A stretch of 64,000 nt of DNA. Source: Gemmatimonadota bacterium (GTDB taxonomy: Bacteria; Gemmatimonadota; Gemmatimonadetes; Longimicrobiales; Gaopeijiaceae). Below, one piece after another: positions 4,680 to 60,664 of the stretch (its first letter is position 1; every line of letters begins with the position of its first letter). Made by a program: the position numbers and the translations under genes. Location: contig JBDHLD010000014.1 in NCBI GenBank assembly GCA_039586035.1, positions 1 through 64,000 of the forward strand. The letters run 5' to 3'. The notes beneath the pieces were generated by a model. It made no database searches. It was given only the letters and a program-made list of their open reading frames with translations, and had not been told where the DNA came from.

Positions 4680-5018
4680 TCAGCCTCCGCAGTCCACCTC
4701 CACCAGGACCCGTCGCCAGCTGGGCACGTCCGCGCCTCCTACCTTCAGCATCCGGGCCCTCGCGCCGCCGCCACCCCGCATCCACGGCGCCAGCCATGCT
4801 CCGATCTCGGGCGGAAGGTGTCCGATGGGATCGCCGGACTGGAGATGCACCCAGACGTCGGGATCGTCCTGGCCGGGGGGGTCGGGGATCAGTACGAGGG
4901 GATCGCCCGCCGCGAGGCCGGGCAGGTGACGCTCGCGGTCCGCGAAGACGGTTCCGTGGACGGTTGCGCGGAACCGCCGAGGCCGGCCCTCGGGGAACGG
5001 GGGGGCCCGAAGGTTCAC
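4680..5018 (-). CDS. Stand-alone HIRAN-domain protein (112 aa)
   Basis: Pattern G..F..R...L..L..GDPL.L..DP.N..DP.A..V....G..IGHLP.E.A..LAP......A.V..V.G, typical of HIRAN 3'-DNA-end-binding domains. It is the only plausible ORF between bshB1-like and iscS; the plus-strand ORFs here are out-of-frame shadows. Confidence 0.55.
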   Translation of the reverse strand: MNLRAPPFPEGRPRRFRATVHGTVFADRERHLPGLAAGDPLVLIPDPPGQDDPDVWVHLQSGDPIGHLPPEIGAWLAPWMRGGGGARARMLKVGGADVPSWRRVLVEVDCGG

Positions 5019-5134
5019 GGGGTCTTCCCGGGTCGGTTCCAGGTCTGGTGCATCGTCGGTAACTTACCGAAGGCGGCCTTCCGTGCAATGGCGGGCACCA
5101 CCCGACCTGCTTCCCTCGAGCCGCGACCCGACGT

Positions 5135-6298
5135 ATGGACGCCATCTACCTGGATCACGCAGCCACCACTCCCCTCCGACCCGAGGTCCGTGACGCCATG
5201 GACCCGTGGATGGGGCAGGCCTTCGGCAACCCCTCGAGCGCCCACCGATTCGGCCGGAGGGCAGCCACGGCGCTGGCGGAGGCTCGGGAGCGCATCGCGG
5301 CCGCGCTGGGGGCCCACCCTGGCGAAGTCTATTTCGTGCGAGGTGGCACGGAATCTGACAACATGGCGGTGCGTGGCCGGGCCGCCGTCGCGCGCGGTCG
5401 GGGCGAGCGGCCCCGCGTCGCCGCGAGCACCGTGGAGCACTCCGCGGTGCTGGAGTCCCTGGACCGCGTGGAGGCCGAGGGCGGGCTCGCCCACCGGATT
5501 CCGGTAGCTCCGACCGGCGCCCTCGACGAGGACGTCCTGGACGAGGTGTTGTCGCTCCGCCCGGATGTCCTTTCGGTCATGTGGGTGAACAACGAGGTGG
5601 GGTTGGTCCTGCCGGTCCCCGAGATCGCCGCCCGGGCCCGTCAGGCCGACGTCACCCTGCACACCGACGCCGTACAGGCCCTGGGCAAGATCCCCGTGCG
5701 GGTGGATCAGACCCCGGTGGACCTGCTCACCGTGACCGGCCACAAGATCTACGGGCCCGGCGGCGCCGGCATCCTGTTCGTCCGTGAGGGAACCGAGCTG
5801 GTACCTGGCCTGGTGGGCGGAGGACAGGAGCGCGGGTTGCGCCCGGGCACCGAGGACGTGGCCGGGGCGGTGGGGCTTGCGGAGGCCATCACCCTGGCCG
5901 TTGAAGAGCAGCCCCGGGAGTCTCTGCGCCTGGCGGCGCTTCGTGACGGCCTCGAGTCGCTCCTGCTGGAGCGCTTCGGCGATCTCACCGTCCATGGCGG
6001 CGAGGGAGCCCGCGCGCCGCACGTGGCCAACCTGGGCATCCCCGGCGTGGACGCCACGGCCCTGGTACAGGCGCTGGACATGGAAGGCGTGGCGGTCTCG
6101 AGCGGCTCCGCATGCCACAGCGGCGCCGCGAAGGCCAGCCACGTGCTGACGGCGCTGTATGGTCCCGGCGCCAGCCAGGCCTCGGTCCGCTTCAGCCTCG
6201 GTCACCTCTCCGACGACGACCGTATGCGTCGTGCGGCGGGCGTGGCTTCCGAGGTTATCGAACGGCTACGCGAGCTCGCAGGGAGCATTTCGGGGTGA
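5135..6298 (+). CDS. iscS: Cysteine desulfurase (IscS/NifS family, PLP-dependent)
   Basis: Has the class-V aminotransferase fold, the PLP lysine motif (TVTGHKIYGPGGAGILFV) and an active-site Cys loop (SSGSACHSG). It lies directly upstream of mnmA. Confidence 0.9.
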   Translation: MDAIYLDHAATTPLRPEVRDAMDPWMGQAFGNPSSAHRFGRRAATALAEARERIAAALGAHPGEVYFVRGGTESDNMAVRGRAAVARGRGERPRVAASTVEHSAVLESLDRVEAEGGLAHRIPVAPTGALDEDVLDEVLSLRPDVLSVMWVNNEVGLVLPVPEIAARARQADVTLHTDAVQALGKIPVRVDQTPVDLLTVTGHKIYGPGGAGILFVREGTELVPGLVGGGQERGLRPGTEDVAGAVGLAEAITLAVEEQPRESLRLAALRDGLESLLLERFGDLTVHGGEGARAPHVANLGIPGVDATALVQALDMEGVAVSSGSACHSGAAKASHVLTALYGPGASQASVRFSLGHLSDDDRMRRAAGVASEVIERLRELAGSISG

Positions 6299-12334: not shown

Positions 12335-12913
12335 TCAGCTGAGCGACTTCACGACCATCTTGGACACGGCCTTGAGCGTGTCGAAGACGCCGCGGCCCTC
12401 GATGGCCACGCCCTCGAAGTCCGGCACGCCTTCGGGGTTCAGCTGGGCGCGCAGCTCCTCCACCGCCATCACGTTGCCCAGATCCCGCTTGTTGTACTGG
12501 ATCGCGAACGGGATCTCCTCGAGATCGTAGCCGTAGGACTCGAGGTTCTCGTACAAGTTGTGCATGGCCTCGATGTTGGCCTCGGTGCGCTCTTGCTGAG
12601 AGTCGGCCACGAAGATGATCCCGTCCACGCCCTTCAGGATGAGCTTGCGGCTGGCATTGTAATAGACCTGACCCGGGACCGTGTAGAGGTGGAACCGGGT
12701 CTTGAAGCCGCGGATCTCTCCCAGATCGATGGGGAGGAAATCGAAGAAGAGCGTTCGCTCCGTCTCCGTCGCGAGCGAGATCATCTTGCCCTTGGTTTCC
12801 GGGTTCACGCGGGAGTAGACGTACTCGAGGTTGGTCGTCTTCCCGCCAAGACCGGTGCCGTAGTAGACGATCTTGCAGTTGATCTCACGGCTGGCGTAGT
12901 TGATCATCGACAT
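12335..12913 (-). CDS. mglA: Ras-like small GTPase MglA (gliding/polarity GTPase)
   Basis: Near-identical over its full length to the MglA pattern: [30 protein letters not shown]...[35 protein letters not shown]...IQYNKRDL...[10 protein letters not shown]. Confidence 0.9.
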
Positions 12914-12919
12914 GACCGG

Positions 12920-13417
12920 CTACGCTCCTTCCTCGAACAGGCGGTCGATCTCGTCGCCGGCCGCGGAGACCCAGTCGGGGTCGAGGGGCCGGCCCCCTTC
13001 CGATCCGGCTTCAATCAGTTCGCGCAAGGGCGCTTCGAGGCTCGAGACGATTCTGCTACCCTCCTTGCTGACCTGTCCTGACGGGCGGCGTCCGTTGAAG
13101 AGAATGGACAGGATGAGTTGATCGGCAACTGGCGCCACGAAGAGTGACGTGTGCTCGCCCTGCTGACAGAGGCCCTTGAGGTCGTCCTCTCCCACGAGCG
13201 ACGCCAGCGCTCGAGTCGCGGCCAGGTGGCTCACCGTGAGACTCGCGAACGCGGTGCGGTCGAGGTCCGGTGACCGCCCGGCTTCGAGAATGACGGCCCC
13301 GCTGCCATCCATGAGAATACCCATGCGCCCGTCCGTCTCCAGCAGGAGCTCGTCCAGGTTCGCGCGCAGGACCCCCAGGGGGTCGGTTGTCGTGTCGTGT
13401 GCTTGACCGAGCTTCAC
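12920..13417 (-). CDS. mglB: MglB, Roadblock/LC7-domain GAP of MglA
   Basis: Roadblock/LC7 fold pattern (AVILEAGRS...LASLTVSHLAA...SLFVAPVADQLILSILFN) and an acidic C-terminal tail (GDEIDRLFEEGA), as in MglB. It is immediately upstream of mglA. Confidence 0.85.
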   Translation of the reverse strand: MKLGQAHDTTTDPLGVLRANLDELLLETDGRMGILMDGSGAVILEAGRSPDLDRTAFASLTVSHLAATRALASLVGEDDLKGLCQQGEHTSLFVAPVADQLILSILFNGRRPSGQVSKEGSRIVSSLEAPLRELIEAGSEGGRPLDPDWVSAAGDEIDRLFEEGA

Positions 13418-17400: not shown

Positions 17401-18453
17401 TCAGGCTCCCGCGACGGTCGCCTCGGCAAGGGAAGCCACGAGGTCCCGGTCCAACGCGTGGGCGATGACACGGATCTGCTCGACCAGGGCGGCGAACTGC
17501 TCCGGATAGAGGCTCTGGGCGCCGTCCGAGAGGGCCGTGGGTGGATCCGGGTGCACCTCCACCATGAGGCCATCCGCTCCCGCCGCCACGGCTGCGCGGG
17601 CCATGGGCGTGACCTTGGCGCGGATGCCGGTCCCATGGCTTGGATCCGCGATGATGGGGAGGTGGGAGAGCGCCTGAACGACCGGAATCGCGGTCAGGTC
17701 CAGGAGGTTCCGCGTGTGCGTGTCGAAGCTCCTCACGCCGCGCTCGCAGAGGATCACCTGCTCGTTTCCCTCAGCGAGGATGTACTCGGCAGCCAGCAGC
17801 AGCTCCGTGATCGTGGCCGACATCCCTCGCTTGAGGAGGATGGGCTTGTCGAGGCGACCGGCCTCCTTGAGCAGCGGGTAGTTCTGCATATTGCGGGCCC
17901 CGATCTGCACGATGTCGGCATATTCCGCCACCAGCTTGGCCCCCGCCGGATCCAGAGCCTCGGTGACCACGGCCATGCCCGTCGCCTCACGGGCTTCGGC
18001 CAGAAGCTCGAGCCCGGCCTGCCCGAGACCCTGGAAAGAGTAGGGCGAGGTGCGGGGCTTGAACGCACCACCGCGGAGCACTGTGGCGCCCGTGTCCCGG
18101 AGCCGGTGCGCCACGTCGAGGATCTGCTCCCTGCCCTCTACCGCGCAGGGACCCGCCATGAGCACGATCGACCGTCCACCGATCAGCGTGCCGTTGGGTA
18201 GCGCGATGACCGTGTCGTCCGACCGCCACTCCCGAGACACCTGCTTGTAGGGCTTGGTGACCGAGATGACCTCACGGACACCCTCCATGCCTTCGAGCCG
18301 GGCAGAGTCGACGCGCCCGTCGTTGCCGATGAGGCCCACAGCTGTCCGCTGCCGGCCGGGAATGGGACGCGCGTCGTAGCCCATGTCCCGGATCGTGTCC
18401 ACGACCGTCCGGATCTCGGCTTCCGAGGCGCTATGGCGCATCACGATCAGCAT
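17401..18453 (-). CDS. aroF: 3-deoxy-7-phosphoheptulonate (DAHP) synthase, short KDO8PS-like type with N-terminal ACT-like regulatory domain
   Basis: Core ([41 protein letters not shown]) matches Thermotoga/Bacillus-type DAHP synthases. The N-terminal ~70 aa resemble a ferredoxin-like regulatory domain. Confidence 0.85.
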
Positions 18454-18559: not shown

Positions 18560-19351
18560 CTACTCGTCCTCCGAAGCGTGGGGGGGGACCAGATCCATCT
18601 GCAGCCCGTCGAACCCAGCCGTGACCGTCCCCTCCCAGCCCGCCTCCCTCACGAGTTGCGGGACCCGTTCCGGCTGGAGCGGCGGATAGGCGTGGGTGGT
18701 GACGATGCACTCCGGCGCCGCGACCCGGCCGAGCTCGGCGACCCCGACGGGCGTGAGGTGGGTGTCGGTCGGCGCCGGGTCGAGGTGTGCGCACTCGCAC
18801 ACGACCACCTGAGCACCCCGAAGGAAAGAGAACAGCTCGGTGTCGGGACCCGTGTCACCCGTGTAACCGAGCACGCAGCCCTCCGCCTCGATCCGGTAGG
18901 CCATGGAGCGGTCGGTATGGGGGGTAGCGTGCGTAAACAACGTGAATCGCTCTGCGGGATCGGACCACCGACCCATCCGCGGGAGCTCCACCACCCGCAG
19001 GGGCAGCCCCGGATCGAGGACGTGACGTCCAAATGCCACGGCGGCAGCGTCGAGGAAATCCCGGAGCCCACGAGGTCCCACGAGGGTCAACGCCTCGGCA
19101 CGCTGCCGGTCCAGGCCGTGCTTGAACGCCCAGAGCAAGGCCGGCAGGTCACCCACGTGATCGCCGTGAAAGTGCGTGATGGCTACGTGGGTGAGGTCTT
19201 GCCACACGCCGCCGAGCTTGCCCAAGCGGTGAACCGCGCCGGAGCCGCAGTCCAGGAGTAACGCAAACCCCCGGCCCTGGACGAGGTGGGCGGGCGACGC
19301 CCGCTCCCCGTTCGGCAGCAGCGTTCCAGAGCCGAGCACGGTCAGCCTCAT
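18560..19351 (-). CDS. MBL-fold metallo-hydrolase (RNase Z/ElaC-like)
   Basis: HxHxDH motif (THFHGDHVGD) plus downstream His/Asp ligands; 263 aa. Its start ATG overlaps the stop of the upstream S8-like gene (ATGA). The track's 324-aa ORF is over-extended. Confidence 0.8.
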   Translation of the reverse strand: MRLTVLGSGTLLPNGERASPAHLVQGRGFALLLDCGSGAVHRLGKLGGVWQDLTHVAITHFHGDHVGDLPALLWAFKHGLDRQRAEALTLVGPRGLRDFLDAAAVAFGRHVLDPGLPLRVVELPRMGRWSDPAERFTLFTHATPHTDRSMAYRIEAEGCVLGYTGDTGPDTELFSFLRGAQVVVCECAHLDPAPTDTHLTPVGVAELGRVAAPECIVTTHAYPPLQPERVPQLVREAGWEGTVTAGFDGLQMDLVPPHASEDE

Positions 19352-21399
19352 GGCCAATACACCATCCGGCGGATCCCCTCGGTCCCCCCGGCTCGGAGCC
19401 GAAGCAGATACACGCCGGGCTCCACGTTGCGGCCCGACTCGTCCGTACCGTCCCAGCTCAGCTGCACACACGGATCCGGGGAGCCTCCCTCCTCTCTCCC
19501 GTAGATGCCCGGGGGCAACACGACCTCGCTGCAACCGACCGCCGGCACCAGCCTCCGCACCAGCCTGCCGCGGAGGTCGTACACGGTGAGCTGAACGGGC
19601 CCCTCACGGGACAGGTCGAACCAGATCCGAGTCTCCGAGAGCCCCAACTCCGCATTCGGGAATGGATTGGGGAAGTTCTGGAACAGGATGGTGGCCGGCG
19701 GACTCGAAGTGCTCACCACGACGAAGGGACCGGCGCTGACCACCGTGTCGGCCTGGCCACCCGGAGCCCTGGCCACCACGCTCCAGCGCAGCGGCTCGTT
19801 CAGTGGCAGCGGATCGGGCACCCGGAAGCGCGTGGTGTCCAGGCCCGCAAAGGCGGCCACCGACTCCTCGTCCCGGTCGCTGAAGACGTCGAGATCGTAG
19901 GTGAGCGGCCCGGCGGGCGGGTCGAGCGCCTCGAACGGCTCCCACTCGAAGATGGGCCTCCGCTCCTCTATCGTCTGGCCGGCCGGGTTGTTCAGGACCG
20001 TGAGCCGGAGCCATGCCGGGACGGTGAGCGGGCCTTGCGTCTCCGTGCGGCGCGTGATGGCCTGGGGCGTCTCGGCGTTGACCCGCCAGAAGATCCGCTG
20101 CCGTGGCGGCAACGGCCGACTGAGGCGGCGAGCGAACGTCCCCACGACCCGGTCGGCCAGAAGGACGTCCTGGAACGTGGAGTCCGCCGCCACGAGGATC
20201 GTGAACGACACCGGCAAGGCCGGCGGGTAGATCGTGGGCGCGTCCCACCGGAAGAGGGGCGTGAGCGTCGTCACCTGACCCTGGGCGTCCACCTCGTCGA
20301 TGGGAATGCCCACGACGCCATCCGGGAACGCGATGGCCGAGCCCACGTCGATGGACCGCACGGCTCCGGTGAACCCCACCCGCGTGGTCGCGGACGCCGC
20401 GAGAGCCTCGGCGATCTGGACCGGGGTCCGCTCGGGATGAGCCTCCGCGAAGAGGGCCGCGCCACCGGCGAGGAGGGCCGCCGCCAACGCCGTCCCGTCA
20501 GATACCACCAGCTCCGTTGGCGACCCCGCGCCCGCCACCGGTACGTCGACACCCGGCGCGTAGGCGTCGGGCTTCGGGCGCCCGTCCGCCGTCGGCCCTT
20601 CGGACGAGAAGGACGCGACGGTCTCGTCGCCGGCCACCGCTCCAGCCGACAGCACGCCGTCTCCGTCCGAAGGAGCTACGAGCGTACCTTCGCCCGGGCC
20701 GAGGTCGCCCACCGGCGCGACGACCAGCACGCCCCGCTCGCTCGCCAGAACCGCCGCCACCGTGGCCGGAGCGGTGGCGCCGTCCAGATCCTCGATCACG
20801 TAGGCGAAGCCATCGTCGAAGGCGCGAAAACCCCCGTCGCTGATGGCCACCCGGGCGCCCTGGCTCTCCAGCCACTCGAGGCCCTGGACCCACCGACCCT
20901 CATCTTCCCTGGGGGCCCCCTCCCCCGCGAAGGTCCGAGCCAGCAGAAAGGACGAGCCGAAGGCGGGTCCGACCAGGACATCCGGTGCCCGGGCCCCGGC
21001 GAGCGACCACGCCGCGGTGGTTGGCGCAGCGGCCTCCTCCTCGCCTGGCCGGGGCGACACGTCGTCGTCGCCCTCGACGAAGTCCCGCGTCGCGAGCAGG
21101 TCGCTTCCGGCGAAGGCCTGATGGTCCGTGCGTACGGTTCCGCCGAGGATCCCGATCCTCACACCCGCACCGGTGAGACCGAGGCGGTGGGCGCCGTCCA
21201 CGCCCATGCGCCGCGTCACCTCCGAGAGGGCTCCGTAAGACGTGTCCGCCAGAGCCACGGGCCGGCCGCCGGATTGGGCCTGCAGGGCCTGGCCGGGTAC
21301 GGCCGCCGCGCCCCAAGCGGAGGAGAGGAGAAAGAGGAGCTGGGCCGGGCTTCGGCCCCGGTCGGGGCTACGCTGCCGAGCCACTCGCCTGCAGGGCAT
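19348..21399 (-). CDS. Secreted subtilisin-like (S8 fold) protein with C-terminal T9SS sorting domain; catalytic triad apparently lost (pseudo-protease)
   Basis: Signal peptide (LLFLLSSAWGAAAVP). S8-like blocks VRIGILGGTVRTDHQAF and VVSDGTALAAALLAGGAALFAEAHPERTPVQI resemble the Asp and Ser blocks, but with D->G and S->A, and no HGTH block is found. C-terminal FQNFPNPFPN...TRIWFDL...LTVYDLRGRLVRRL is a type IX secretion (Por) C-terminal domain. Its 5' end overlaps the 3' end of smc by 32 nt. Confidence 0.75.
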   Translation of the reverse strand: MPCRRVARQRSPDRGRSPAQLLFLLSSAWGAAAVPGQALQAQSGGRPVALADTSYGALSEVTRRMGVDGAHRLGLTGAGVRIGILGGTVRTDHQAFAGSDLLATRDFVEGDDDVSPRPGEEEAAAPTTAAWSLAGARAPDVLVGPAFGSSFLLARTFAGEGAPREDEGRWVQGLEWLESQGARVAISDGGFRAFDDGFAYVIEDLDGATAPATVAAVLASERGVLVVAPVGDLGPGEGTLVAPSDGDGVLSAGAVAGDETVASFSSEGPTADGRPKPDAYAPGVDVPVAGAGSPTELVVSDGTALAAALLAGGAALFAEAHPERTPVQIAEALAASATTRVGFTGAVRSIDVGSAIAFPDGVVGIPIDEVDAQGQVTTLTPLFRWDAPTIYPPALPVSFTILVAADSTFQDVLLADRVVGTFARRLSRPLPPRQRIFWRVNAETPQAITRRTETQGPLTVPAWLRLTVLNNPAGQTIEERRPIFEWEPFEALDPPAGPLTYDLDVFSDRDEESVAAFAGLDTTRFRVPDPLPLNEPLRWSVVARAPGGQADTVVSAGPFVVVSTSSPPATILFQNFPNPFPNAELGLSETRIWFDLSREGPVQLTVYDLRGRLVRRLVPAVGCSEVVLPPGIYGREEGGSPDPCVQLSWDGTDESGRNVEPGVYLLRLRAGGTEGIRRMVYWP

Positions 21400-24300
21400 C
21401 CTCGAGACGCACGCCGACGATGCTGCTCACTCCCGGCTCTTCCATCGTCACCCCGTAGATCCAGTCGGCCGCCTCGATGGTGCGCGGGTTGTGCGTAATG
21501 ACGACGAACTGGGTGCCCCGCTTGAACTCCTGAAGAAGCCGGATGAATCGGCCGATGTTGGCCTCGTCGAGGGGCGCGTCGACCTCGTCCAGCACACAGA
21601 ACGGACTGGGCTTCACCAGGTAGATGCCGAAGAGGAGGGAAAGGGCCGTCAGTGCCCGTTCGCCCCCCGACAGGAGATCGATCCGTTGGGTCCTCTTGCC
21701 CCGGGGCGAAGCGTGGATCTCCACCAGTGACTCCAGGGGATCGTCCTCGTCCGACAGCCAGAGGTCGGCTTCGCCGCCTTCGAACAGGCGTCGGAACGTG
21801 CTGACGAAGTTCTCCCGAATCTGGTGGAATGTGTCCAGGAAAAGGGTCGTGGCCGTCTCGTTGATCTGCTTGATGGCGGCCCTGAGGTCGTCGCGGGCGC
21901 TCACCAGGTCGAACTGTTGCTCCTTCAGGAACGAGAGCCGGGTGCTCTCCTCTTCGTGCTCCTCCATGGCGAGCATGTTCACCGGCCCGATCCGCTCCAG
22001 GGCCTGGACGATCTCCTTCAGCTCGGAGGACAGCGCTTCGGGATCACCTTCGATGGGCTCGGCCTCCTCCAGCAGGGTCTGGAGCGGCCTGCCCCACTCA
22101 CCCTCGAGCCGCTCCTGTATCCGCCCGATGTCTCCCAGGAGCTCCTGTCGCTCCAGCTCGAGCCGATGGCGCCGGTTCGTCGCCTCGCGCTCGGCACTCC
22201 GGGCGGCTCGCACCCGGCGCGCCTCCACGTCGAGCTCCTCCGCCACGTCCGCGACCGCCCGGTCGCGCTCCGCGAGCTGAGATTCGGCCTCGGTGCGAGA
22301 CCTGAAGAGCTCTTCGGTGGCGGTTTCGCCCTGCCTCCTCAGCTGACTCACCTCGGACAGCTCGGTCCGCAGGGCTGTTTCCTCACGGTCGAGCGCCTCG
22401 ACTCGATCCAGGGCGGACTGGCGCGCCTTGACCGCGTCCTCGTTCCGCTCGCGGGTGCGACCCAGCTCGCCCTCGAGGCGTGTGAGCTCCACCGTCAGTC
22501 TGGACTCTTCGGCCCGGGCGGTCTCCCACTCCTCCTCTACGGTCTCCAGCGCGGCCTGAGCCTTCTCGCGCTGGCCGTGCAGCGCTTCCTCCTCCGATGA
22601 CAGAACCCCCCGATCTTCCCGCGCGGTCTCGCCCCGCTCCAGAGCGCGGGCACGAGCCGCCCGGGTGCCCTCGAGCTGCCGCGCCAGCTCGTCCCGGTGT
22701 CGGTCCATTCGGTCCTTGCGGTCGTACTGGGCGGCGATCTCGGCCCCGGCCTGGCGATGGGCGTCCTCCGCGGTCCGCAGCTCGCCTCGAGCGTCTTCCA
22801 GGTTCGTCTCGGCGGCCCTCACGCGGACCTCGGCGTCCTCACGGTCCGCCCGCGCCTGATCCGCTGCGGCACGTGCGGCCGCCGCCCGGGGCTGGAGCTC
22901 TTCCAGACGGGCCCTGCGCTCCAACACGCCGCTGGCGCCCGTGGGGTTGCCCACACGCACGACGCCCAGCCGGTCCACCGAGGCCCCGGACGGGGCCAGG
23001 CGCAGGCCGTCGGCGTCGGTGAGCAGGCCATCCTCTTCCACCAGCTGCACGCCGCCGAGCAACGCCTCGACCCAGCGGCTGCCCGCCCCGGTCGACGTGA
23101 CACCGTCGGGCACCTTGCCTCCGGACTCCGGCGCGTTGTCCAGCGGCAACAGGATGAGGCCTCCACCGCCGTCCCACTCCTCCTTGAACCAGGTGGCCAC
23201 CCGGCCAGCCGCCTTTCGGTCCTTCACCACGATGCCCCGCAGCAAAGTCCCCAGATATGCCTCCACGGCCGCCGAGTGAGACGCCTCGACGTCGAGGAAG
23301 TCGGACAGCGTTCCCAGCACACCGGTGCCGCCTCCGTCGAGAGCCGCCTGAACCGCGGGCTCCACGCCTTCACGGTCTCGCGCCATGCGCTCCAGCGCCG
23401 CGGCCTCGGCCGACAACGATCCGGCGTGGTCGGCGGCCTCCAGCTCCCTGACCCGGAGGTCGTCGAGCGCCGACCGAGCCGAGGCGAGGGTACTCTCCGC
23501 GCCCGCGACCTTCGACCGGGCCACCTGCTCGTCGGTCGCGAGCTGCTCCAGGCGATCCGCAAACAGATCCCCTTGGGATTCCAGGTCCGAAAGGGCGTCG
23601 GCCGCCGCCTCCAGCTCGTCGTGGAGCCGCTCCAGACGCCGCCCCAGCTCGGCCGCCTGGGCTTCGGCTGCGTCGGCGTCGCCTTCGAGCTGCGCGCCCT
23701 TACGCGCCACCTCCCGCTCGCGCGCCTCCATGGACTGGACGTCGCCACGGGCGCTCTGAAGTCGTTGCCTCACCTCCCCCGTGGCCGCGCGGCTGGCCTC
23801 CAGCGACGCCCGCGCCTGACCCAGCTCCTCCTCCAGGTCCCGCCCCAGGCGGGAGAGGTTGCGGGTCTCGGACCCCAGCGCGTGGGCCCGATCCTGCGAC
23901 TGCTGGCGCTCCTCCAGGATCTGCGCCAATCGCCGCTCCGCGTAGGCCGCCCGCTCGTCCGCGACCGCCAGGTCCCGCTCCCAGCGGACGAGTTGGTTGC
24001 GCACGTCGTCGAGCCGCGCTGCGGACTCGGAGCGCTGCTTCTCGACGTCGATCTGGCGCAGCCGCAGGCTCTCGACCCGTGCCTCGGCGGCTCGCAGCTC
24101 CGCGAGCATGCCCTCGGCGGAGCCTTGCTCTCCGCCCAGGACGCCCTCTACCTCCACCAGCCGCTCCTGGAGCCCGGTGAGGCGGTGCCCCACGACGGCC
24201 ACCTCCACAGCCAGCCGGCGGGTTCGTAGCGAATGGTATCGCTGCGCCTTCCCCTTCTGGCGGGCGAGGGATCTGACCTTCGTCTCGACTTCCGCGATGA

Positions 24301-24880
24301 CGTCTTCCAGGCGTTGGAGATCCAGCTCCGCCCGCTCCAACCGCCTCGTCGCCGCCTTCCTTCGGTCCTTGTATTTGCCGATTCCGGCCGCCTCCTCGAA
24401 GAGGCCCCGGCGTTCATCGGCCCGGTCCGAGAGGATCGCGTCGATCATGCGGTTCTCGATGACCGCGTAGGCGTTGGCGCCCAGGCCGGTGTCACGGCAG
24501 AGCTCGACGACGTCCTTCAAGCGACAGTGGGAGCGGTTGATGGAGTACTCGCTGCCCCCGTCCCGGAACACGGTCCGACCGATCTCCACCTCCTCGAACG
24601 GGACCGGGAGCAGCCCGTCTTCGTTGCTGACCGTCATGACCACGGACCCGCGGTTCACGGGCCGACGGTTCACGGTCCCCTGGAAGATGGCTTCCTCCAT
24701 CTTGGCGCCCCTGATGGCGGTCGGGCGCTGCTCTCCCAGTACCCAGCGGATGGCGTCGCTGATGTTGGACTTGCCGCAACCGTTGGGGCCCACGATGGCG
24801 GTGATGCCCTCGTGGAAATCGATATCCGTGCGGTCTGCGAAGGACTTGAAGCCGTTGACCCTCAGGGAGCGGAGCTTCAT
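21368..24880 (-). CDS. smc: Chromosome segregation protein SMC
   Basis: 1170 aa; N-terminal Walker A (GPNGCGKSN), long coiled coils, a hinge, and a C-terminal signature/Walker B (LSGGERALTALSLLFGIYLVKPSPFCVLDEVDAPLD). Confidence 0.95.
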   Translation of the reverse strand: MKLRSLRVNGFKSFADRTDIDFHEGITAIVGPNGCGKSNISDAIRWVLGEQRPTAIRGAKMEEAIFQGTVNRRPVNRGSVVMTVSNEDGLLPVPFEEVEIGRTVFRDGGSEYSINRSHCRLKDVVELCRDTGLGANAYAVIENRMIDAILSDRADERRGLFEEAAGIGKYKDRRKAATRRLERAELDLQRLEDVIAEVETKVRSLARQKGKAQRYHSLRTRRLAVEVAVVGHRLTGLQERLVEVEGVLGGEQGSAEGMLAELRAAEARVESLRLRQIDVEKQRSESAARLDDVRNQLVRWERDLAVADERAAYAERRLAQILEERQQSQDRAHALGSETRNLSRLGRDLEEELGQARASLEASRAATGEVRQRLQSARGDVQSMEAREREVARKGAQLEGDADAAEAQAAELGRRLERLHDELEAAADALSDLESQGDLFADRLEQLATDEQVARSKVAGAESTLASARSALDDLRVRELEAADHAGSLSAEAAALERMARDREGVEPAVQAALDGGGTGVLGTLSDFLDVEASHSAAVEAYLGTLLRGIVVKDRKAAGRVATWFKEEWDGGGGLILLPLDNAPESGGKVPDGVTSTGAGSRWVEALLGGVQLVEEDGLLTDADGLRLAPSGASVDRLGVVRVGNPTGASGVLERRARLEELQPRAAAARAAADQARADREDAEVRVRAAETNLEDARGELRTAEDAHRQAGAEIAAQYDRKDRMDRHRDELARQLEGTRAARARALERGETAREDRGVLSSEEEALHGQREKAQAALETVEEEWETARAEESRLTVELTRLEGELGRTRERNEDAVKARQSALDRVEALDREETALRTELSEVSQLRRQGETATEELFRSRTEAESQLAERDRAVADVAEELDVEARRVRAARSAEREATNRRHRLELERQELLGDIGRIQERLEGEWGRPLQTLLEEAEPIEGDPEALSSELKEIVQALERIGPVNMLAMEEHEEESTRLSFLKEQQFDLVSARDDLRAAIKQINETATTLFLDTFHQIRENFVSTFRRLFEGGEADLWLSDEDDPLESLVEIHASPRGKRTQRIDLLSGGERALTALSLLFGIYLVKPSPFCVLDEVDAPLDEANIGRFIRLLQEFKRGTQFVVITHNPRTIEAADWIYGVTMEEPGVSSIVGVRLEDALQASGSAA

Positions 24881-26772
24881 CGGAGGGGGCGGCCCATCCG
24901 TTCGGTGAGGATCGCGCCAGTCAGGCCCGATTCGATCAGCAGGGTCTGCAGATGACTCGCCTCGCGGGCGTTGGCGTAGGCGCCGGCGTACACCCGGTAC
25001 CGCAGCGGACCCTCCGGCGGCCCGTATTCCGCGAAGTAGGCCGGGATCCCAGCGTCCTCGGCCTGGCCTCTGCGAGCCATGGCCTCGTCGAGCGAGTCGT
25101 ACTCGCCCAGGAGAAAGGCGACGCGGGTGGAACGGACGATGGCCCCCCTCGCGACGGCGGTGCCGATGTAGCCGGCCAACTCTGCGCGGATGGCCTCGGC
25201 GTGGCCTCTCGACTCGGCGGGGCCGGCCACGACCCGGTAGTAGTTGGCGCCCCCCACCTGTACGGGCACCAGCACGAACTGGAGCGACGGGAAGCGCGCC
25301 TGAAGGTCCCTCGACTGTTCCTGGGCGGCGGTTGCCCGCTCATGGGCGTTGATGGTGAGACCGAAGCGCATGATGGCGCTGGGCGACAGGGCGCCCGTGG
25401 CCGATGGCGTGCCTTCCTCCGTCGCGTCCTCTCTGGTCGCGGTGGGGACCCCGCCTTCATCGACGGGCGTGGGATCGTCGGGCTCGCCACCGGTGCCCCC
25501 GGGCACGGCGCCCTCTGAAGTCGTGGGCTCGCTCACTTCCGCCGCGTCGCCTGCGTCCGGCGTAGCTGCCGCCATGTCCGCGTCAGCCGACCGTGCCGCG
25601 GACAGCTCGACCGGTGCGTCGTCCGCGGGATCGCTACTCGAGACGGCTGGCGCGTCGCCCCGGCCCATCAGAGCGATGAGCGTCGCCACGACGATGACGA
25701 TCAATGCCAACCAGAGGAGGAGCCGCCGCCGAGAGCTAGGGGCCGGCTCCGATTCGATGGAAAGCAGGCCTTCGAACTCGGCGGACAGCTCTGTATCCGG
25801 GCCGCTGGGAGCCTCTGGCCCGGACGCTCCGGGTGCTCCCGCGGCTTCGTCGGCGAGCTCTTCGGCAGCGGTTTCGTCCCAAAACGGATCCAGCTCTGCC
25901 CCCGCGCTCCCACCGGCACCGGGCTCCTCCTCCCCCGTGGGGAGACCCTCGGCAAGGGGTCCGCTGGCGAACGCCGTGCCCTCGTCGACGGCAGGGAGTG
26001 CGCCGGCCGCCGGCCCCTCGGTCAGACTCGGGGCTCCGGGATCGTGGGTGGCCTCGAGGCTCTCGGCGAGACGGACCTCCAGGCTGGCGACGTCCGTGGC
26101 ATCGAGGTCCGCTCCGTCGCCTCCCAGATCCACCGCGGTGCCCGCCACCGATGCCGGGCTGGCCGCGCCAGCTTGCGCTACGTCCAGGGGAGAGACTACC
26201 GCATGCACCGGAGTGGACGACTCCACGAGCGCCTCGGTGGGCGCGGCAGCCCCGGCCAGAAGCACCACGGCGTCGGCACGTTCGAGCAAGGCGGTGGCAC
26301 CCTCGAGCGAAAGCGGTACGTGGAGGAGCACCAGCGTGCCCGACTTCCGGTAGCCGCCCAGGATGGTTTCCCAGCGAGGGTTCTCGAGGATCTTCGAGGA
26401 ATCTCCGACCACCGTGCCCGAAGGCACGAACAGGAAGGTGCCCTCGCGGACCCCCCGGGAGACACGGCGAGCGGAGGCTCCGAACTCGAAGACGTCGCTG
26501 ATGCCTTCGCCCGGCGTGACGCCGAGCTCGTTGGGGAGCCAGGAACCCTCCAGGCTCAGGTCGATCAGGACTGTGCGGGCGCCACGGCCGGCTGCCGCCT
26601 CGGCGACCCTCGCGGACACGCTGGCCGCCCAGGGGCCGTCTTCAGCCGTCGGAGCCACCGCCATGGCCAACACGCGAACGGGGCCGTCGCCGTCCAGCAG
26701 AGCCGAGATCGAATCCGGCACGTCGTCCGTATCCGGGTCGAAGGCCTGCCAGACGGGTGTCTCCAGTGTCAT
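24877..26772 (-). CDS. Hypothetical protein: degenerate ParA/MinD-like N-domain + low-complexity linker + TM helix + two C-terminal SPOR (septal peptidoglycan-binding) domains
   Basis: N-terminus (VRVLAMAVAP...RTVLIDLSLEGSWLP...LVLLHVP...ADAVVLLAG) has a MinD/ParA-like fold pattern but no Walker A GKS/T. TM segment LLLWLALIVIVVATLIALMG. Two SPOR-like repeats (QFVLVPVQVGGANYYRVVAGP...; YRVYAGAYANAREASHLQTLL). Its stop overlaps the smc start by 4 nt. Confidence 0.65.
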   Translation of the reverse strand: MTLETPVWQAFDPDTDDVPDSISALLDGDGPVRVLAMAVAPTAEDGPWAASVSARVAEAAAGRGARTVLIDLSLEGSWLPNELGVTPGEGISDVFEFGASARRVSRGVREGTFLFVPSGTVVGDSSKILENPRWETILGGYRKSGTLVLLHVPLSLEGATALLERADAVVLLAGAAAPTEALVESSTPVHAVVSPLDVAQAGAASPASVAGTAVDLGGDGADLDATDVASLEVRLAESLEATHDPGAPSLTEGPAAGALPAVDEGTAFASGPLAEGLPTGEEEPGAGGSAGAELDPFWDETAAEELADEAAGAPGASGPEAPSGPDTELSAEFEGLLSIESEPAPSSRRRLLLWLALIVIVVATLIALMGRGDAPAVSSSDPADDAPVELSAARSADADMAAATPDAGDAAEVSEPTTSEGAVPGGTGGEPDDPTPVDEGGVPTATREDATEEGTPSATGALSPSAIMRFGLTINAHERATAAQEQSRDLQARFPSLQFVLVPVQVGGANYYRVVAGPAESRGHAEAIRAELAGYIGTAVARGAIVRSTRVAFLLGEYDSLDEAMARRGQAEDAGIPAYFAEYGPPEGPLRYRVYAGAYANAREASHLQTLLIESGLTGAILTERMGRPLR

Positions 26773-37756: not shown

Positions 37757-39550
37757 TCACTCCACGACCCTGAGCGTGCGGTGGACGGCCATGGTGGAGC
37801 GTCCCGGCAGCTCGAGCTCGAGCGTGAGGCGGTACCGGCCGGGGCCGAGGGCGGTGAGGTCTACGTCCGTGGCCCGAAACTCACGGCGAGCACCTCCCCC
37901 GCCCTGCTCGCTCCACGAAACCTGCACCTCGGGCCCCCCACCGAAAAGGCCCAGGAGCGAGCCCACCTTCTCCGCCAGGCCCCGGTCGCGCTTCACGACG
38001 GTGAGCCGATAGGCCATGCTCACGGCTTCGGGGCCGAGCCCGGTCACTTCCCAGGCGACGCCGAGGGGTTGTCCGGGCAGAATGGCGTTCCCCGGCCAGG
38101 CCTGGTCGATGGCCGCTGCTAGAGTCTCGGGCATACCGGGACCGGCGTCGAGAAGCAGTGCGTCGGAGAGGGCAGGAACGTCGGGCGGCAGCGTGTCGGC
38201 CACCAGTCCCAACCTCGTCCGGCTGGCGCGCCCGAGCTTCGAGGTCAGGCTCTCTACCGAAGCCAGGTAGGAGCCGGCCGGCACCTGGAGGGACAGGCGT
38301 CCCACGGGCCCCGCCGTGCTGGTGGCCGCGTGGATGGCCCCACCGGTCTCCGGCAGCAGGAAGAGGCCCGCCTCCACCGCCTGATCGGGGGGTACGTCCG
38401 AGTCCAGGCGCCGGAGCAGGGCACCGGCGGGTCGGTCGTCGTCCTCCGGCGGCGTCATTCTGTACGCGGCCACCACAAGCACCGAGTCGCCGCGCCAGAA
38501 GCGGGCGATCTGGACGGCCGCGCGGGTCGCCACGGGGGCGTAGAGGGGCGCGTACGCACTCCTCGGCCGATCCGGAGACAGCTCCCAGGCTTCCTCGTCC
38601 GATGCCGCGGGCCGGGCGATCGCCGCCGCAGGCGGCATGTAGGTCAAGGATTCGGGGTGATGGTGGCCCACGACGCCAGTGCTCCGGGACTCGCCGGGAC
38701 CGGCGCGCGTGCGCTCCCAACCCACCTCCCAGCCGTACCGGACCAGCAGCTCCTCGAGGTCCGGGCCCCACGACATGCCATACGCCGATCGGCTGTCCGA
38801 CCGGATGCGGGACACCGTGTGCCGAGCGTAGTGCTCGGTGAGGCGATCGTTGCCGGACTTCAGGAAGAAGGGATCGGCGAGCTGCCAGGCCCGCTCCACG
38901 AGACGGTCGGGGGGGAGGGTGTCGTGTGCGTCCCGTAGGACGTTCCCCCGGTCCTCGAGCAACGGCGACGGGTCCCGCCATCGACCCGCCAACTCGGGAC
39001 TCATGGCGGCCAGCGCCGCATCGAAGGCCCGCTCGGCGTCCACGAAGCGTTGGGCTCCGTGGTAGGCGAGCCCCCGGAGAGCGTCACACCATCCCCGCTG
39101 CCCGCCGTGACACGCATCGGCGACGTGGACGGCCTCGGTCCACCGGCCGACCTCGCCCAGGTAGAAGATCCGTTGCCCGGTGATCCAGGTGTCACCCGGA
39201 ATCCGCTCACCGGCAATCCGCAGCTCCCCGAGCAGCTGCTCCCGGGCCGCACGGATCTCGGGAGACTCCGGAACCGGCTCCCAGTCGCCCTCGCCATGTC
39301 GCATGCACATGCGGCCGATGACCTCGTCGCACTGGCCGCCCCAGCTTCCCCACGTCGAGGGCAGGTGCAGTCGACGATACCGTTCGAAGCGTGTCTGGGC
39401 GCCGCGGGCTCGGTCACGGACCTCGGCTGAATCCACCGCCTCGGGGACCGCGGTGAGGTGGAGGGCATCCTGACCGGCTACCGACGTCGAGGCGAGCGGG
39501 ACCGCGGTCAGCAGGCTGAGTGACGCGACGAGGGCCAGTGGGCTCTGCAT
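37757..39550 (-). CDS. Hypothetical secreted protein (597 aa, signal peptide)
   Basis: N-terminal signal peptide (LALVASLSLLTAVPLASTSVAG); no family recognised with confidence. Coding-like composition along its full length. Confidence 0.55.
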   Translation of the reverse strand: MQSPLALVASLSLLTAVPLASTSVAGQDALHLTAVPEAVDSAEVRDRARGAQTRFERYRRLHLPSTWGSWGGQCDEVIGRMCMRHGEGDWEPVPESPEIRAAREQLLGELRIAGERIPGDTWITGQRIFYLGEVGRWTEAVHVADACHGGQRGWCDALRGLAYHGAQRFVDAERAFDAALAAMSPELAGRWRDPSPLLEDRGNVLRDAHDTLPPDRLVERAWQLADPFFLKSGNDRLTEHYARHTVSRIRSDSRSAYGMSWGPDLEELLVRYGWEVGWERTRAGPGESRSTGVVGHHHPESLTYMPPAAAIARPAASDEEAWELSPDRPRSAYAPLYAPVATRAAVQIARFWRGDSVLVVAAYRMTPPEDDDRPAGALLRRLDSDVPPDQAVEAGLFLLPETGGAIHAATSTAGPVGRLSLQVPAGSYLASVESLTSKLGRASRTRLGLVADTLPPDVPALSDALLLDAGPGMPETLAAAIDQAWPGNAILPGQPLGVAWEVTGLGPEAVSMAYRLTVVKRDRGLAEKVGSLLGLFGGGPEVQVSWSEQGGGGARREFRATDVDLTALGPGRYRLTLELELPGRSTMAVHRTLRVVE

Positions 39551-39569: not shown

Positions 39570-39641
39570 TTGCCCCCCCAGGACTCGAACCTGGACCAAG
39601 GGTTCCAAAGACCCTTGTGCTGCCGTTACACCAGGGGGCAG
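39570..39641 (-). tRNA. tRNA-Gln (anticodon UUG)
   Basis: Minus strand UGCCCCCUGGUGUAACGGCAGCACAAGGGUCUUUGGAACCCUUGGUCCAGGUUCGAGUCCUGGGGGGCA. D-arm GUGU/GCAC with a GG loop. Anticodon stem AGGGU/ACCCU with loop CUUUGGA. T-arm CCAGG-UUCGAGU-CCUGG. My hand fold of the acceptor stem is one G short of perfect, so boundaries are +/-2 nt. Confidence 0.75.
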
Positions 39642-60533: not shown

Positions 60534-60539
60534 CGCGCT

Positions 60540-60660
60540 GCTCCTCCGTGAGGAAAAAATAGGATTCACGATCCGTTCTAATCTTGTTTTTCGAATTGTT
60601 CTCAGACGAAAAGTCGAGTCGAAGTTATCCAGACGGCCAGAATCGTGCCAGGCTTTCGAT
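60540..60660 (-). promoter_or_regulatory. AT-rich (~40% GC) intergenic promoter region upstream of the secreted-protein gene
   Basis: Strong local compositional dip versus the ~70% GC surroundings (aggaaaaaataggattcacgatccgttctaatcttgtttttcgaattg...). An RBS GGAGG is adjacent to the start. Confidence 0.4.
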
Positions 60661-60664
60661 AAAC

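What the first reader, a model, noticed from the sequence alone, without database searches (positions are those of the whole stretch)
19348..21399. Catalytically dead subtilisin-like T9SS cargo protein, coupled to smc and an MBL-fold hydrolase
The protein has a signal peptide, an S8-like fold and a type-IX-secretion C-terminal sorting domain. However the Asp block reads ILGGTV (D->G), the His block (HGTH) is not recognisable, and the Ser block reads GTALAAALLAG (S->A). That makes it a pseudo-protease that is still exported to the cell surface. Its start overlaps the 3' end of smc by 32 nt, and its stop overlaps the MBL-hydrolase start (ATGA). Tight coupling of a surface pseudo-enzyme and a metallo-hydrolase to the chromosome condensin gene is unusual.
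Basis: partly seen in the sequence, partly recalled or inferred. Interest (0 to 1): 0.6.

Follow-up and report, generated by a model that had tools for sequence, protein, structure and literature searches.

The report
Inactive exported subtilisin relative beside smc
This gene encodes a secreted subtilisin-type protein that has lost all its catalytic residues yet is still kept by selection. It sits in a gene cluster with the chromosome-condensing gene smc that is conserved across the phylum Gemmatimonadota, where more distant relatives still carry an intact protease.

Summary
ORF 19348-21399 (-) encodes a 683-aa protein with a signal-peptide-like N-terminus, a confident subtilisin (S8) fold, two beta-sandwich domains and a C-terminal beta-sandwich homologous to type-A T9SS sorting domains.

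All four catalytic positions are replaced: Asp32->Gly86, His64->Pro126, oxyanion Asn155->Asp232, Ser221->Ala304. The gene is not decaying. dN/dS against a 91%-identical relative is 0.135 in the S8 domain, 0.09 in smc and 0.17 in the MBL gene.

The 32-nt overlap with smc and the ATGA overlap with the MBL gene are real and recur in relatives.

New here:
- The order SPOR-smc-S8-MBL is conserved in every Gemmatimonadota locus examined that reaches those genes, with DAHP synthase next wherever the DNA extends far enough. Gemmatimonadales orthologs in that position keep an intact D/H/N/S set, so the linkage to smc predates inactivation.
- The window's wider clade lost the serine once. 38 of 38 relatives carry Glu there while mostly keeping Asp, His and Asn.
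- The window's subclade then lost the rest, plus an N-terminal extension of about 100 aa.

It is most likely a non-catalytic exported binding protein. Whether this lineage has a T9SS could not be tested. I rate it a new member of a known kind (pseudo-subtilases), of moderate interest.

The parts
19348..21399 (-). Gene for the 683-aa pseudo-subtilase: signal peptide, dead S8 domain, two beta-sandwich domains and a CTD.
   Evidence: ORF. Pfam S8 hit. AF2 model with pLDDT 86.9. dN/dS 0.16 over the whole gene.
21274..21399 (-). Signal-peptide-like N-terminus, aa 1 to about 42. It has an Arg-rich n-region, the hydrophobic stretch AQLLFLLSSAWGAAAV, and ALQA|QS as a likely cleavage site.
   Evidence: Read directly from the sequence. 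Conserved in L086, L001, L087 and L088. pLDDT is below 50 for aa 1-48. No signal-peptide predictor was available.
20365..21252 (-). Subtilisin-fold (S8) domain, aa about 50-345, catalytically dead. The substituted codons are Gly86 (21142-21144), Pro126 (21022-21024), Asp232 (20704-20706) and Ala304 (20488-20490).
19714..20322 (-). Two tandem beta-sandwich (Ig/Fn3-like) domains, aa about 360-466 and 470-562. Each carries conserved F-x-W and W-R-V motifs.
   Evidence: DSSP on the AF2 model, with pLDDT mostly above 90. Family conservation. Only weak Ig_Rha78A_N hits in 4 of 27 members.
19351..19704 (-). C-terminal beta-sandwich domain, aa 566-683, homologous to type-A T9SS sorting domains. It has the motifs QNFPNPF, YDLRGR and GVYLLRL, plus an insertion bounded by two conserved Cys residues.
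   Evidence: TIGR04183 scores 17.2 bits, below cutoff. 18 of 27 family members hit it. hhalign gives 99.6%. Fold hits to PorU, PorZ and T9SS substrate CTDs are weak.
21368..21399 (-). 32-nt overlap between the 3' end of smc and the 5' end of the S8 gene.
   Evidence: The same 32-nt overlap occurs in L001 and L087, and a 26-nt overlap in L088.
19348..19351 (-). ATGA overlap between the S8 stop codon and the MBL start codon.
   Evidence: The same 4-nt overlap occurs in L001, L086, L087 and L088.
21368..24880 (-). smc (1170 aa), immediately upstream.
   Evidence: Pfam SMC_N scores 219 bits, with an SMC_hinge hit as well.
24877..26772 (-). Gene for a SPOR-domain protein (631 aa). It overlaps the smc start by 4 nt and is the first gene of the conserved cluster.
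   Evidence: Pfam SPOR scores 47 bits. Synteny.
18560..19351 (-). MBL-fold hydrolase (263 aa from the ATG at 19351). It is RNase Z-like or phosphodiesterase-like and keeps an intact HxHxDH motif.
   Evidence: Pfam Lactamase_B_2 and Lactamase_B hits. NCBIfam RNase_Z scores 98 bits, well below its cutoff. Homologs are 257-267 aa.
17401..18453 (-). DAHP synthase gene, the next conserved member of the cluster. It lies 106 nt downstream of the MBL gene.
   Evidence: Synteny tables and tblastn.

Best explanation
The gene encodes a non-catalytic descendant of a secreted subtilase that Gemmatimonadota carry directly downstream of smc.

Shown:
- The protein keeps a complete subtilisin fold.
- Asp32, His64, the oxyanion Asn155 and the nucleophile Ser221 are Gly, Pro, Asp and Ala.
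- The gene is under purifying selection as strong as its neighbours.
- It lies in a SPOR-smc-S8-MBL(-DAHP synthase) block with overlapping reading frames. That block is conserved across the phylum.
- Orthologs in Gemmatimonadales keep an intact catalytic set.

Inferred from a neighbour-joining (NJ) tree:
- Inactivation happened in steps. Ser->Glu arose once at the base of the window's wider clade.
- In the window's subclade, Glu then became Ala or Gly, His became Arg or Pro, and Asn became Asp. The roughly 100-aa N-terminal extension, which occupies the position of a subtilase propeptide, was deleted.

Inferred mechanism:
- The protein is translated from the same transcript as SMC.
- It is exported through Sec by its N-terminal signal peptide. 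It then reaches or crosses the outer membrane via its type-A C-terminal sorting domain.
- There the dead S8 domain, held away from the sorting domain by two Ig-like domains, acts as a binding module or receptor for the peptide or protein that its active orthologs cleave. This resembles the way the CspC/CspA pseudo-subtilases of Clostridioides difficile signal rather than cut.
For: - Fold: Pfam S8 scores 56 bits. The AF2 model has pLDDT 86.9. Foldseek gives target-normalised TM 0.82-0.86 to subtilisins.
- Dead site: HMMER alignments to Tk-SP and savinase, and MAFFT with BPN' as reference. The family table shows the same positions replaced in the window and P0002-P0005.
- Selection: dN/dS against L086 is 0.135 for the S8 domain, 0.137 for the middle domains and 0.075 for the CTD. 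smc is 0.090 and MBL 0.174.
- Synteny: SPOR-smc-S8-MBL is present in every one of the 20 Gemmatimonadota loci whose DNA reaches those genes, with DAHP synthase next wherever the DNA extends that far (L001-L016, L042; L086-L088). The overlaps recur.
- Intact orthologs at the same position: L003-L016 and L042 all read D/H/N/S.
- Stepwise loss: 38 of 38 relatives have Glu at the Ser position, with Asn in 38, His in 36 and Asp in 34. In the NJ tree the window's subclade nests inside the Ser-less clade, with the D/H/N/S sequences L004 and P0046 as successive outgroups.
- Sorting domain: TIGR04183 hits 18 of 27 members, best E 2.4e-6. hhalign gives 99.6%, E 8.6e-24, against CTDs of FCB-superphylum (Fibrobacteres-Chlorobi-Bacteroidetes group) S8 proteins. 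Two of those, L019 and L038, pass Pfam Por_Secre_tail.
- Motif: YDLRGR matches the functionally required L-beta3-beta4 motif with its conserved Gly, described in PMC11285876.
- Precedent: pseudo-subtilases that act as receptors, CspC and CspA (PMC7200643, PMC12880746).
Against: - The ligand and the cellular location are entirely inferred.
- This protein's own CTD scores are below the curated cutoffs.
- Structural matches of the CTD to T9SS CTDs are weak, with E 1e-3 to 4e-2 and TM about 0.4-0.5. They are mixed with generic Ig-like hits.
- No T9SS component lies among the window ORFs I scanned. T9SS has not been shown experimentally in Gemmatimonadota.
- Co-transcription is inferred only from overlaps and the absence of terminator-like sites.
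- The NJ tree has no support values.
- The function of the active orthologs is also unknown, so 'binds what they cleave' has no identified target.
Confidence: 0.6

Rival explanations
1. The cluster is a functional unit. The S8-derived protein works in the cell envelope, periplasm or septum, together with the SPOR-domain protein, and so links division-site peptidoglycan to chromosome segregation by SMC. Under this reading the C-terminal domain is an Ig-like interaction domain, not a secretion signal.
For: - SPOR-smc-S8-MBL order and tight spacing are conserved across Gemmatimonadota, whatever the catalytic state.
- smc is also directly followed by an S8 gene in two Calditrichaceae-like loci, L019 and L038.
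- The CTD is below the T9SS cutoffs and also matches FlgD_ig.
Against: - The surrounding 20 kb is a run of unrelated housekeeping genes: S6/S18, L9, RsfS, DAHP synthase, DnaX, YbaB and RecR. Conserved order may therefore be simple inheritance.
- The Calditrichaceae loci lack the SPOR and MBL genes.
- The CTD profile is clearly homologous to CTDs that pass Por_Secre_tail.
Confidence: 0.2
2. The protein is still a hydrolase and uses non-canonical residues in the old active site or elsewhere.
For: - Strong purifying selection acts on the S8 domain.
- In the sister clade an invariant Glu replaces Ser while Asp, His and Asn are mostly kept. This could indicate a re-tooled site in those relatives.
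Against: - In the window's subclade all four positions carry residues that cannot do the chemistry: Gly or Ala, Pro or Arg, Asp, and Ala or Gly.
- The nearby Ser300 is not conserved among the five closest relatives.
- The Pro225 and His226 helix-cap residues are also lost.
Confidence: 0.05
3. The gene is a decaying pseudogene, or an assembly or sequencing artefact.
For: Four catalytic residues are lost, and part of the N-terminus is missing relative to other family members.
Against: - The 683-codon ORF is uninterrupted.
- dN/dS is 0.16 overall.
- The same substitutions occur in independent assemblies.
- The AF2 model is confident.
- GC3 of 0.87 is typical of coding genes in this window.
Confidence: 0.03

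Closest known systems
CspC / CspA pseudoproteases of Clostridioides difficile (subtilisin-like germinant-signalling proteins)
   Same: They are members of the S8 fold family whose catalytic triad is naturally substituted. They are kept under selection and work by binding or signalling rather than cleavage (PMC7200643, PMC12880746). NCBIfam CspBA and CspC models give weak hits to this family.
   Different: They are spore proteins of Firmicutes with no T9SS-type CTD and no Ig-like spacer domains. The sequence relation is only at the level of the S8 superfamily, with scores far below the curated cutoffs. The ligand here is unknown.
T9SS-type subtilases of the FCB superphylum (Fibrobacteres-Chlorobi-Bacteroidetes group), including the Calditrichaceae S8 in L019 and mirolase of Tannerella forsythia
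   Same: The S8 domain is followed by a C-terminal type-A sorting domain. The catalytic domains are 33-42% identical. The CTD profiles are homologous at 99.6%. L019 and L038 also sit directly downstream of smc.
   Different: Those proteins keep D/H/N/S and pass the Por_Secre_tail cutoff. The window protein has none of the catalytic residues. Its CTD carries insertions and falls below cutoff.
Orthologous S8 peptidases of Gemmatimonadales (L003, L005-L015; annotated 'S8 family serine peptidase')
   Same: They occupy the same position between smc and the MBL gene and have the same domain order, including both middle domains and the CTD. Identity is 38-41% over aa about 50-681.
   Different: They have an intact catalytic set and an N-terminal extension of about 100 aa. 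The window protein lacks both.
Tk-SP subtilisin-like protease of Thermococcus kodakarensis (PDB 3afg, 9ues)
   Same: It is the best sequence match among solved structures, with E 5e-16 over aa 60-337. It is among the top structural matches.
   Different: It is an active archaeal protease. The deposited chain reads Ala at the Ser221 position in my alignment; from memory, not checked here, that is an engineered S-to-A mutant. Its C-terminal domains differ.

Membership tests
Peptidase S8 (subtilase) family: homology and fold | Significant match to the S8 profile and an alpha/beta subtilisin fold | tested here: met
   PF00082 scores 56.4 bits against a cutoff of 21.8. Foldseek gives target-normalised TM 0.82-0.86 to subtilisins, with rmsd 2.7-3.8.
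Peptidase S8: active enzyme | Catalytic triad Asp32, His64 and Ser221 (BPN' numbering) | tested here: not met
   The positions read Gly86, Pro126 and Ala304.
Peptidase S8: active enzyme | Oxyanion-hole Asn155 | tested here: not met
   The position reads Asp232, in PVGDLGP.
Peptidase S8: typical precursor | N-terminal propeptide between the signal peptide and the catalytic domain | tested here: inconclusive
   Most family members carry an extension of about 100 aa that the window's subclade lacks. Pfam did not recognise that extension as Inhibitor_I9 in any of 27 members. The PDB alignment of P0008 starts only at aa 155.
T9SS type-A C-terminal sorting domain (TIGR04183 / PF18962) | HMM score at or above the curated cutoff | tested here: not met
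   TIGR04183 scores 17.2 bits against 23, and there is no PF18962 hit. By E-value alone, 18 of 27 family members hit TIGR04183, best 2.4e-6.
T9SS type-A C-terminal sorting domain | Homology to accepted CTDs by profile-profile comparison, and location at the extreme C-terminus | tested here: met
   hhalign gives probability 99.6%, E 8.6e-24, against CTDs of 25 FCB-superphylum S8 proteins. Two of them pass PF18962. The domain ends 2 residues before the stop codon.
T9SS type-A C-terminal sorting domain | Ig-like beta-sandwich of about 7 strands, with the L-beta3-beta4 motif carrying a conserved Gly (PMC11285876) | tested here: met
   The CTD model has pLDDT 84.3 and 8 strands. In YDLRGR, the Asp, the second Arg and the Gly are invariant across the family. 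The motif is described. Structural matches to the PorU, PorZ, RemA and NucA CTDs are only weak.
T9SS cargo (functional) | A T9SS translocon and sortase (SprA/Sov, PorV, PorU, GldKLMN) encoded in the same genome | not testable with these tools
   Only 64 kb of the genome is available. The window ORFs scanned, about 29 of roughly 50, are housekeeping genes or have no Pfam hit. The literature says only that T9SS 'may' be present in Gemmatimonadetes.
Sec-exported protein | N-terminal signal peptide with n-, h- and c-regions | tested here: inconclusive
   Judged by eye. There is an Arg-rich n-region, a 16-residue hydrophobic stretch and an AxA-like ALQA site. These are conserved in relatives. No predictor was available.
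CspC-type germinant-receptor pseudoprotease (NF040808) | Score above the family cutoff | tested here: not met
   There is no hit for the window protein. Only 5 of 27 relatives hit the model by E-value, best 2.2e-10, and no member's score was compared with its curated cutoff.

The most novel reading that the evidence does not exclude
The Ser->Glu relatives are not dead. They may carry a re-tooled Asp-His-Glu(+Asn) site with a new chemistry or a specific ligand. The phylum-wide SPOR-smc-S8-MBL operon may reflect a real functional link between envelope or septum remodelling and chromosome segregation. Under this reading the window's protein is a further step, a pure receptor or scaffold derived from that system.
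Probability: 0.1. Interest if true: 0.75.

Novelty: new member of a known kind. Interest (0 to 1): 0.4.

Why it matters
Pseudo-enzymes derived from subtilases are known from very few bacterial cases, the Csp proteins of clostridia being the example found here. This case adds a whole environmental clade, at least 43 sequence clusters from Gemmatimonadota metagenomes, in which the order of decay can be read from living relatives:
- intact D/H/N/S;
- then Glu in place of Ser, with the other residues kept;
- then loss of everything, plus loss of the N-terminal extension.

The protein stays under purifying selection and in the same operon position throughout.

It also flags an unexplained gene linkage. 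A secreted subtilase gene sits directly downstream of smc, often overlapping it, across a whole phylum.

Practically, automatic annotation names several family members 'S8 family serine peptidase'. That name is misleading for this clade.

Tried and rejected
- A sequence search of the CTD alone against the PDB gave only chance-level hits, with E at least 0.15.
- I tried to show that the family's N-terminal extension is a subtilase propeptide. Pfam found no Inhibitor_I9 in any of 27 members, and the PDB alignment of P0008 starts at aa 155. It is left as an inference from position.
- Literature on T9SS in Gemmatimonadota is thin. There is one review sentence, an older survey that found T9SS only in Bacteroidetes, and nothing specific.
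- The promoter and terminator scan of 16.5-29.6 kb found no promoter-like site. It found 6 terminator-like sites against 3.7 expected, and none lay at a gene boundary inside the cluster. It was uninformative.
- About 29 of the roughly 50 window ORFs were scanned for T9SS parts. All were housekeeping genes or had no Pfam hit.
- Rfam and tRNA scans found only tRNA-Gln.
- A first MAFFT run timed out and was repeated with faster settings.
- A Tat signal was considered and rejected. The RR at residues 4-5 lies about 15 residues before the hydrophobic stretch.
- A lipoprotein signal was considered and rejected because there is no lipobox Cys.
Full report
**What is there**

The window has about 69% G+C. 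On the minus strand, 19348..21399 is an open frame of 683 codons. Its third-position G+C is 0.87, typical of real genes in this window.

smc lies upstream at 21368..24880, with Pfam SMC_N at 219 bits. The two frames share 32 nt. Downstream, the S8 stop TGA and the ATG of an MBL-fold gene form ATGA. The ORF listing extends the MBL frame to a TTG at 19534. Homologs of 257-267 aa and tblastn alignments that begin at MRLTVLGSG support the ATG at 19351 instead.

A SPOR-domain gene (24877..26772) overlaps the smc start by 4 nt. DAHP synthase follows the MBL gene after 106 nt.

**Start codon**

Close relatives in the databases (P0001, P0002) were called as 619 aa from the equivalent of Met65. In locus L086 the frame stays open upstream. 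It encodes the same MPCRRVA...LLLLLSCAWGA... region as the window. More distant homologs begin M-x-x-R-x-V-x-R-R-P-D followed by a hydrophobic stretch.

The conserved DSxYGxL motif lies upstream of Met65, so the long form is the real one. A GTG at 21384 cannot be excluded. It changes nothing of substance.

**The protease domain is real and dead**

- Pfam Peptidase_S8 matches at 56 bits, but only from profile position 66 onward. The Asp block is too divergent to score.
- HMMER alignments to Tk-SP and savinase and a MAFFT alignment with subtilisin BPN' as reference agree on four substitutions:
  - Asp32 is Gly86 (IGILGGTV).
  - His64 is Pro126 (AAAPTTAAW).
  - The oxyanion Asn155 is Asp232 (PVGDLGP).
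  - Ser221 is Ala304 (GTALAAALLAG). The Pro and His that normally follow the serine are also lost.
- An AlphaFold2 model built on 54 sequences has mean pLDDT 86.9. Only residues 1-48 are disordered.
- The model superposes on subtilisins with target-normalised TM 0.82-0.86.

**It is not a pseudogene**

I compared the window with the 91%-identical gene in L086.

| Region | dN/dS |
|---|---|
| S8 domain | 0.135 |
| Two middle domains | 0.137 |
| C-terminal domain | 0.075 |
| smc | 0.090 |
| MBL gene | 0.174 |

**Family and history**

A search of the large protein collection returned about 48 clusters of full-length relatives. All came from Gemmatimonadota-type metagenomic contigs. The few that carry names are called Gemmatimonadota, Longimicrobiales or Gemmatimonadales 'S8 family serine peptidase'.

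Tabulating the four catalytic columns gives three groups:

| Group | Asp32 | His64 | Asn155 | Ser221 | N-terminal extension (~100 aa) |
|---|---|---|---|---|---|
| Window and four closest clusters (64-91% identity) | G, A or D | P or R | D | A or G | absent |
| 38 clusters at 48-55% identity | Asp in 34 | His in 36 | Asn in 38 | Glu in all 38 | present in most |
| More distant sequences | D | H | N | S | present |

In the Glu group about 20% of S8-domain columns are invariant. The invariance of Glu and Asn is therefore consistent with continued constraint but does not prove it.

A scan of one genome per GTDB species added 14 Gemmatimonadota loci. All read D/H/N/S, including L004 at 50% identity.

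A neighbour-joining tree without support values places the window's subclade inside the Ser-less clade. L004 and P0046, both D/H/N/S, are successive outgroups, and the Gemmatimonadales orthologs lie beyond them.

The simplest reading has two steps. Ser->Glu happened once, together with loss of the Pro-His cap. The window's subclade then lost the remaining residues and the N-terminal extension.

Four members of the Glu clade (P0014, P0016, P0017, P0027) lack the same extension but keep their signal peptide. Their sisters have the extension. The extension therefore seems to have been lost more than once after catalysis was lost. That fits a propeptide that has become useless. I could not show by sequence that the extension is a propeptide.

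**Gene neighbourhood**

SPOR-smc-S8-MBL is present, in that order and on one strand, in every one of the 20 Gemmatimonadota loci whose DNA reaches those genes. DAHP synthase follows wherever the DNA extends far enough (L001-L016, L042; L086-L088).

- The 32-nt smc/S8 overlap recurs in L001 and L087, and a 26-nt overlap in L088.
- The 4-nt S8/MBL overlap recurs in L001 and L086-L088.
- In Gemmatimonadales (L003) the gaps are 5 and 1 nt.

The linkage is therefore older than the inactivation.

Outside the phylum, most related S8 genes are not near smc. Two related Calditrichaceae-like loci (L019, L038) do have smc directly followed by an active S8 with a Por_Secre_tail domain. They lack the SPOR and MBL genes.

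The wider region consists of housekeeping genes: S6/S18, L9, RsfS, DnaX, YbaB and RecR. Inherited gene order without a functional link remains a live explanation.

**The C-terminal domain**

On its own the window protein misses the curated cutoffs: TIGR04183 scores 17.2 against 23, and FlgD_ig 19.7 against 27. The two partial hits flank an insertion bounded by two conserved cysteines.

- At family level, 18 of 27 members hit TIGR04183 (best E 2.4e-6) and 21 of 27 hit FlgD_ig.
- A profile of the family's last 118 residues aligns to a profile of the C-termini of 25 S8 proteins from the FCB superphylum (Fibrobacteres-Chlorobi-Bacteroidetes group). hhalign gives probability 99.6% and E 8.6e-24. 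Two of those proteins pass Pfam Por_Secre_tail.
- The alignment shows three insertions in the Gemmatimonadota domain.
- A separate model of the domain (pLDDT 84.3) is an eight-stranded beta-sandwich.
- Its PDB matches are weak. They include the PorU and PorZ CTDs, two T9SS-bound substrate CTDs and FlgD, mixed with generic Ig-like domains.
- The YDLRGR segment corresponds to the L-beta3-beta4 motif, whose glycine is needed for secretion of RgpB (PMC11285876).

Homology to type-A sorting domains is well supported. Function as a T9SS signal in this organism is not. A T9SS in Gemmatimonadetes is only suggested in the literature. An older survey found T9SS only in Bacteroidetes. The window ORFs I scanned hold no T9SS gene.

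**Mechanism**

Shown:
- a folded, selected, catalytically incompetent S8 domain;
- an export-type architecture;
- an operon-like arrangement.

Inferred:
- Sec export;
- CTD-dependent delivery to the cell surface;
- a binding or receptor role for the dead cleft.

The closest functional analogy is the CspC/CspA pair of C. difficile. These are subtilisin-like pseudoproteases that transduce germinant signals. That is an analogy only. The window protein fails every membership test for that family.

**Verdict**

The protein is a new member of a known kind, a naturally inactivated subtilase.

Two features are worth a specialist's attention. One is the stepwise decay visible among living relatives, including an invariant Ser->Glu stage. 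The other is the unexplained, phylum-wide placement of this secreted-protein gene directly behind smc.

Noticed in passing
Relatives P0006-P0044 (for example L002 8001-10304, L087 6001-8304, L088 6001-8352): All 38 clusters of the sister clade have Glu at the nucleophile position (GTEFAAALLAG). Asn155 is kept in 38, His64 in 36 and Asp32 in 34. From my own recollection, not checked in the literature, an Asp-His-Glu arrangement in a subtilisin fold is not a described catalytic set. It could be a stable dead state or a re-tooled site.
   Followed up: partly
L019 1782-7263 and L038 1898-7266: In two Calditrichaceae-like MAG contigs, smc is directly followed by a catalytically intact S8 gene with a Por_Secre_tail domain. 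In L019 a second T9SS-tail protein follows. No SPOR or MBL gene is present. This is either coincidence or a trace of an older smc-S8 linkage.
   Followed up: partly
window 21207-21399; L086 5809-6000: Public gene calls for the two closest relatives (P0001, P0002; 619 aa) start at the equivalent of Met65. They miss the conserved signal peptide, which overlaps the smc 3' end.
   Followed up: yes
P0014, P0016, P0017, P0027 (689-690 aa): A subgroup of the Glu clade lacks the N-terminal extension of about 85-100 aa but keeps its signal peptide, while its sisters P0020 and P0023 have the extension. This loss appears independent of the one in the window's subclade.
   Followed up: partly
window 12335-13417 (-): A Roadblock/LC7-domain gene (12920-13417) sits next to a small Ras/Arf-like GTPase gene (12335-12913). 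This is an MglB/MglA-like pair and is conserved at the same place in L001 and L002.
   Followed up: no
window 37757-39550 (-), 59130-60668 (-), 5015-6205 (-): Three sizeable ORFs (597, 512 and 396 aa) have coding-type G+C at the third codon position but no Pfam match at E<=0.001.
   Followed up: no
window 18560-19351 (-): The MBL-fold protein matches RNase Z, cyclic-nucleotide phosphodiesterase and anti-Pycsar Apyc1 models, all far below their cutoffs. Its actual substrate is open, yet it is conserved next to the S8 gene across the phylum.
   Followed up: partly
window 39570-39640 (-): tRNA-Gln (anticodon TTG) is the only RNA gene that Rfam or ARAGORN found in the 64 kb.
   Followed up: yes
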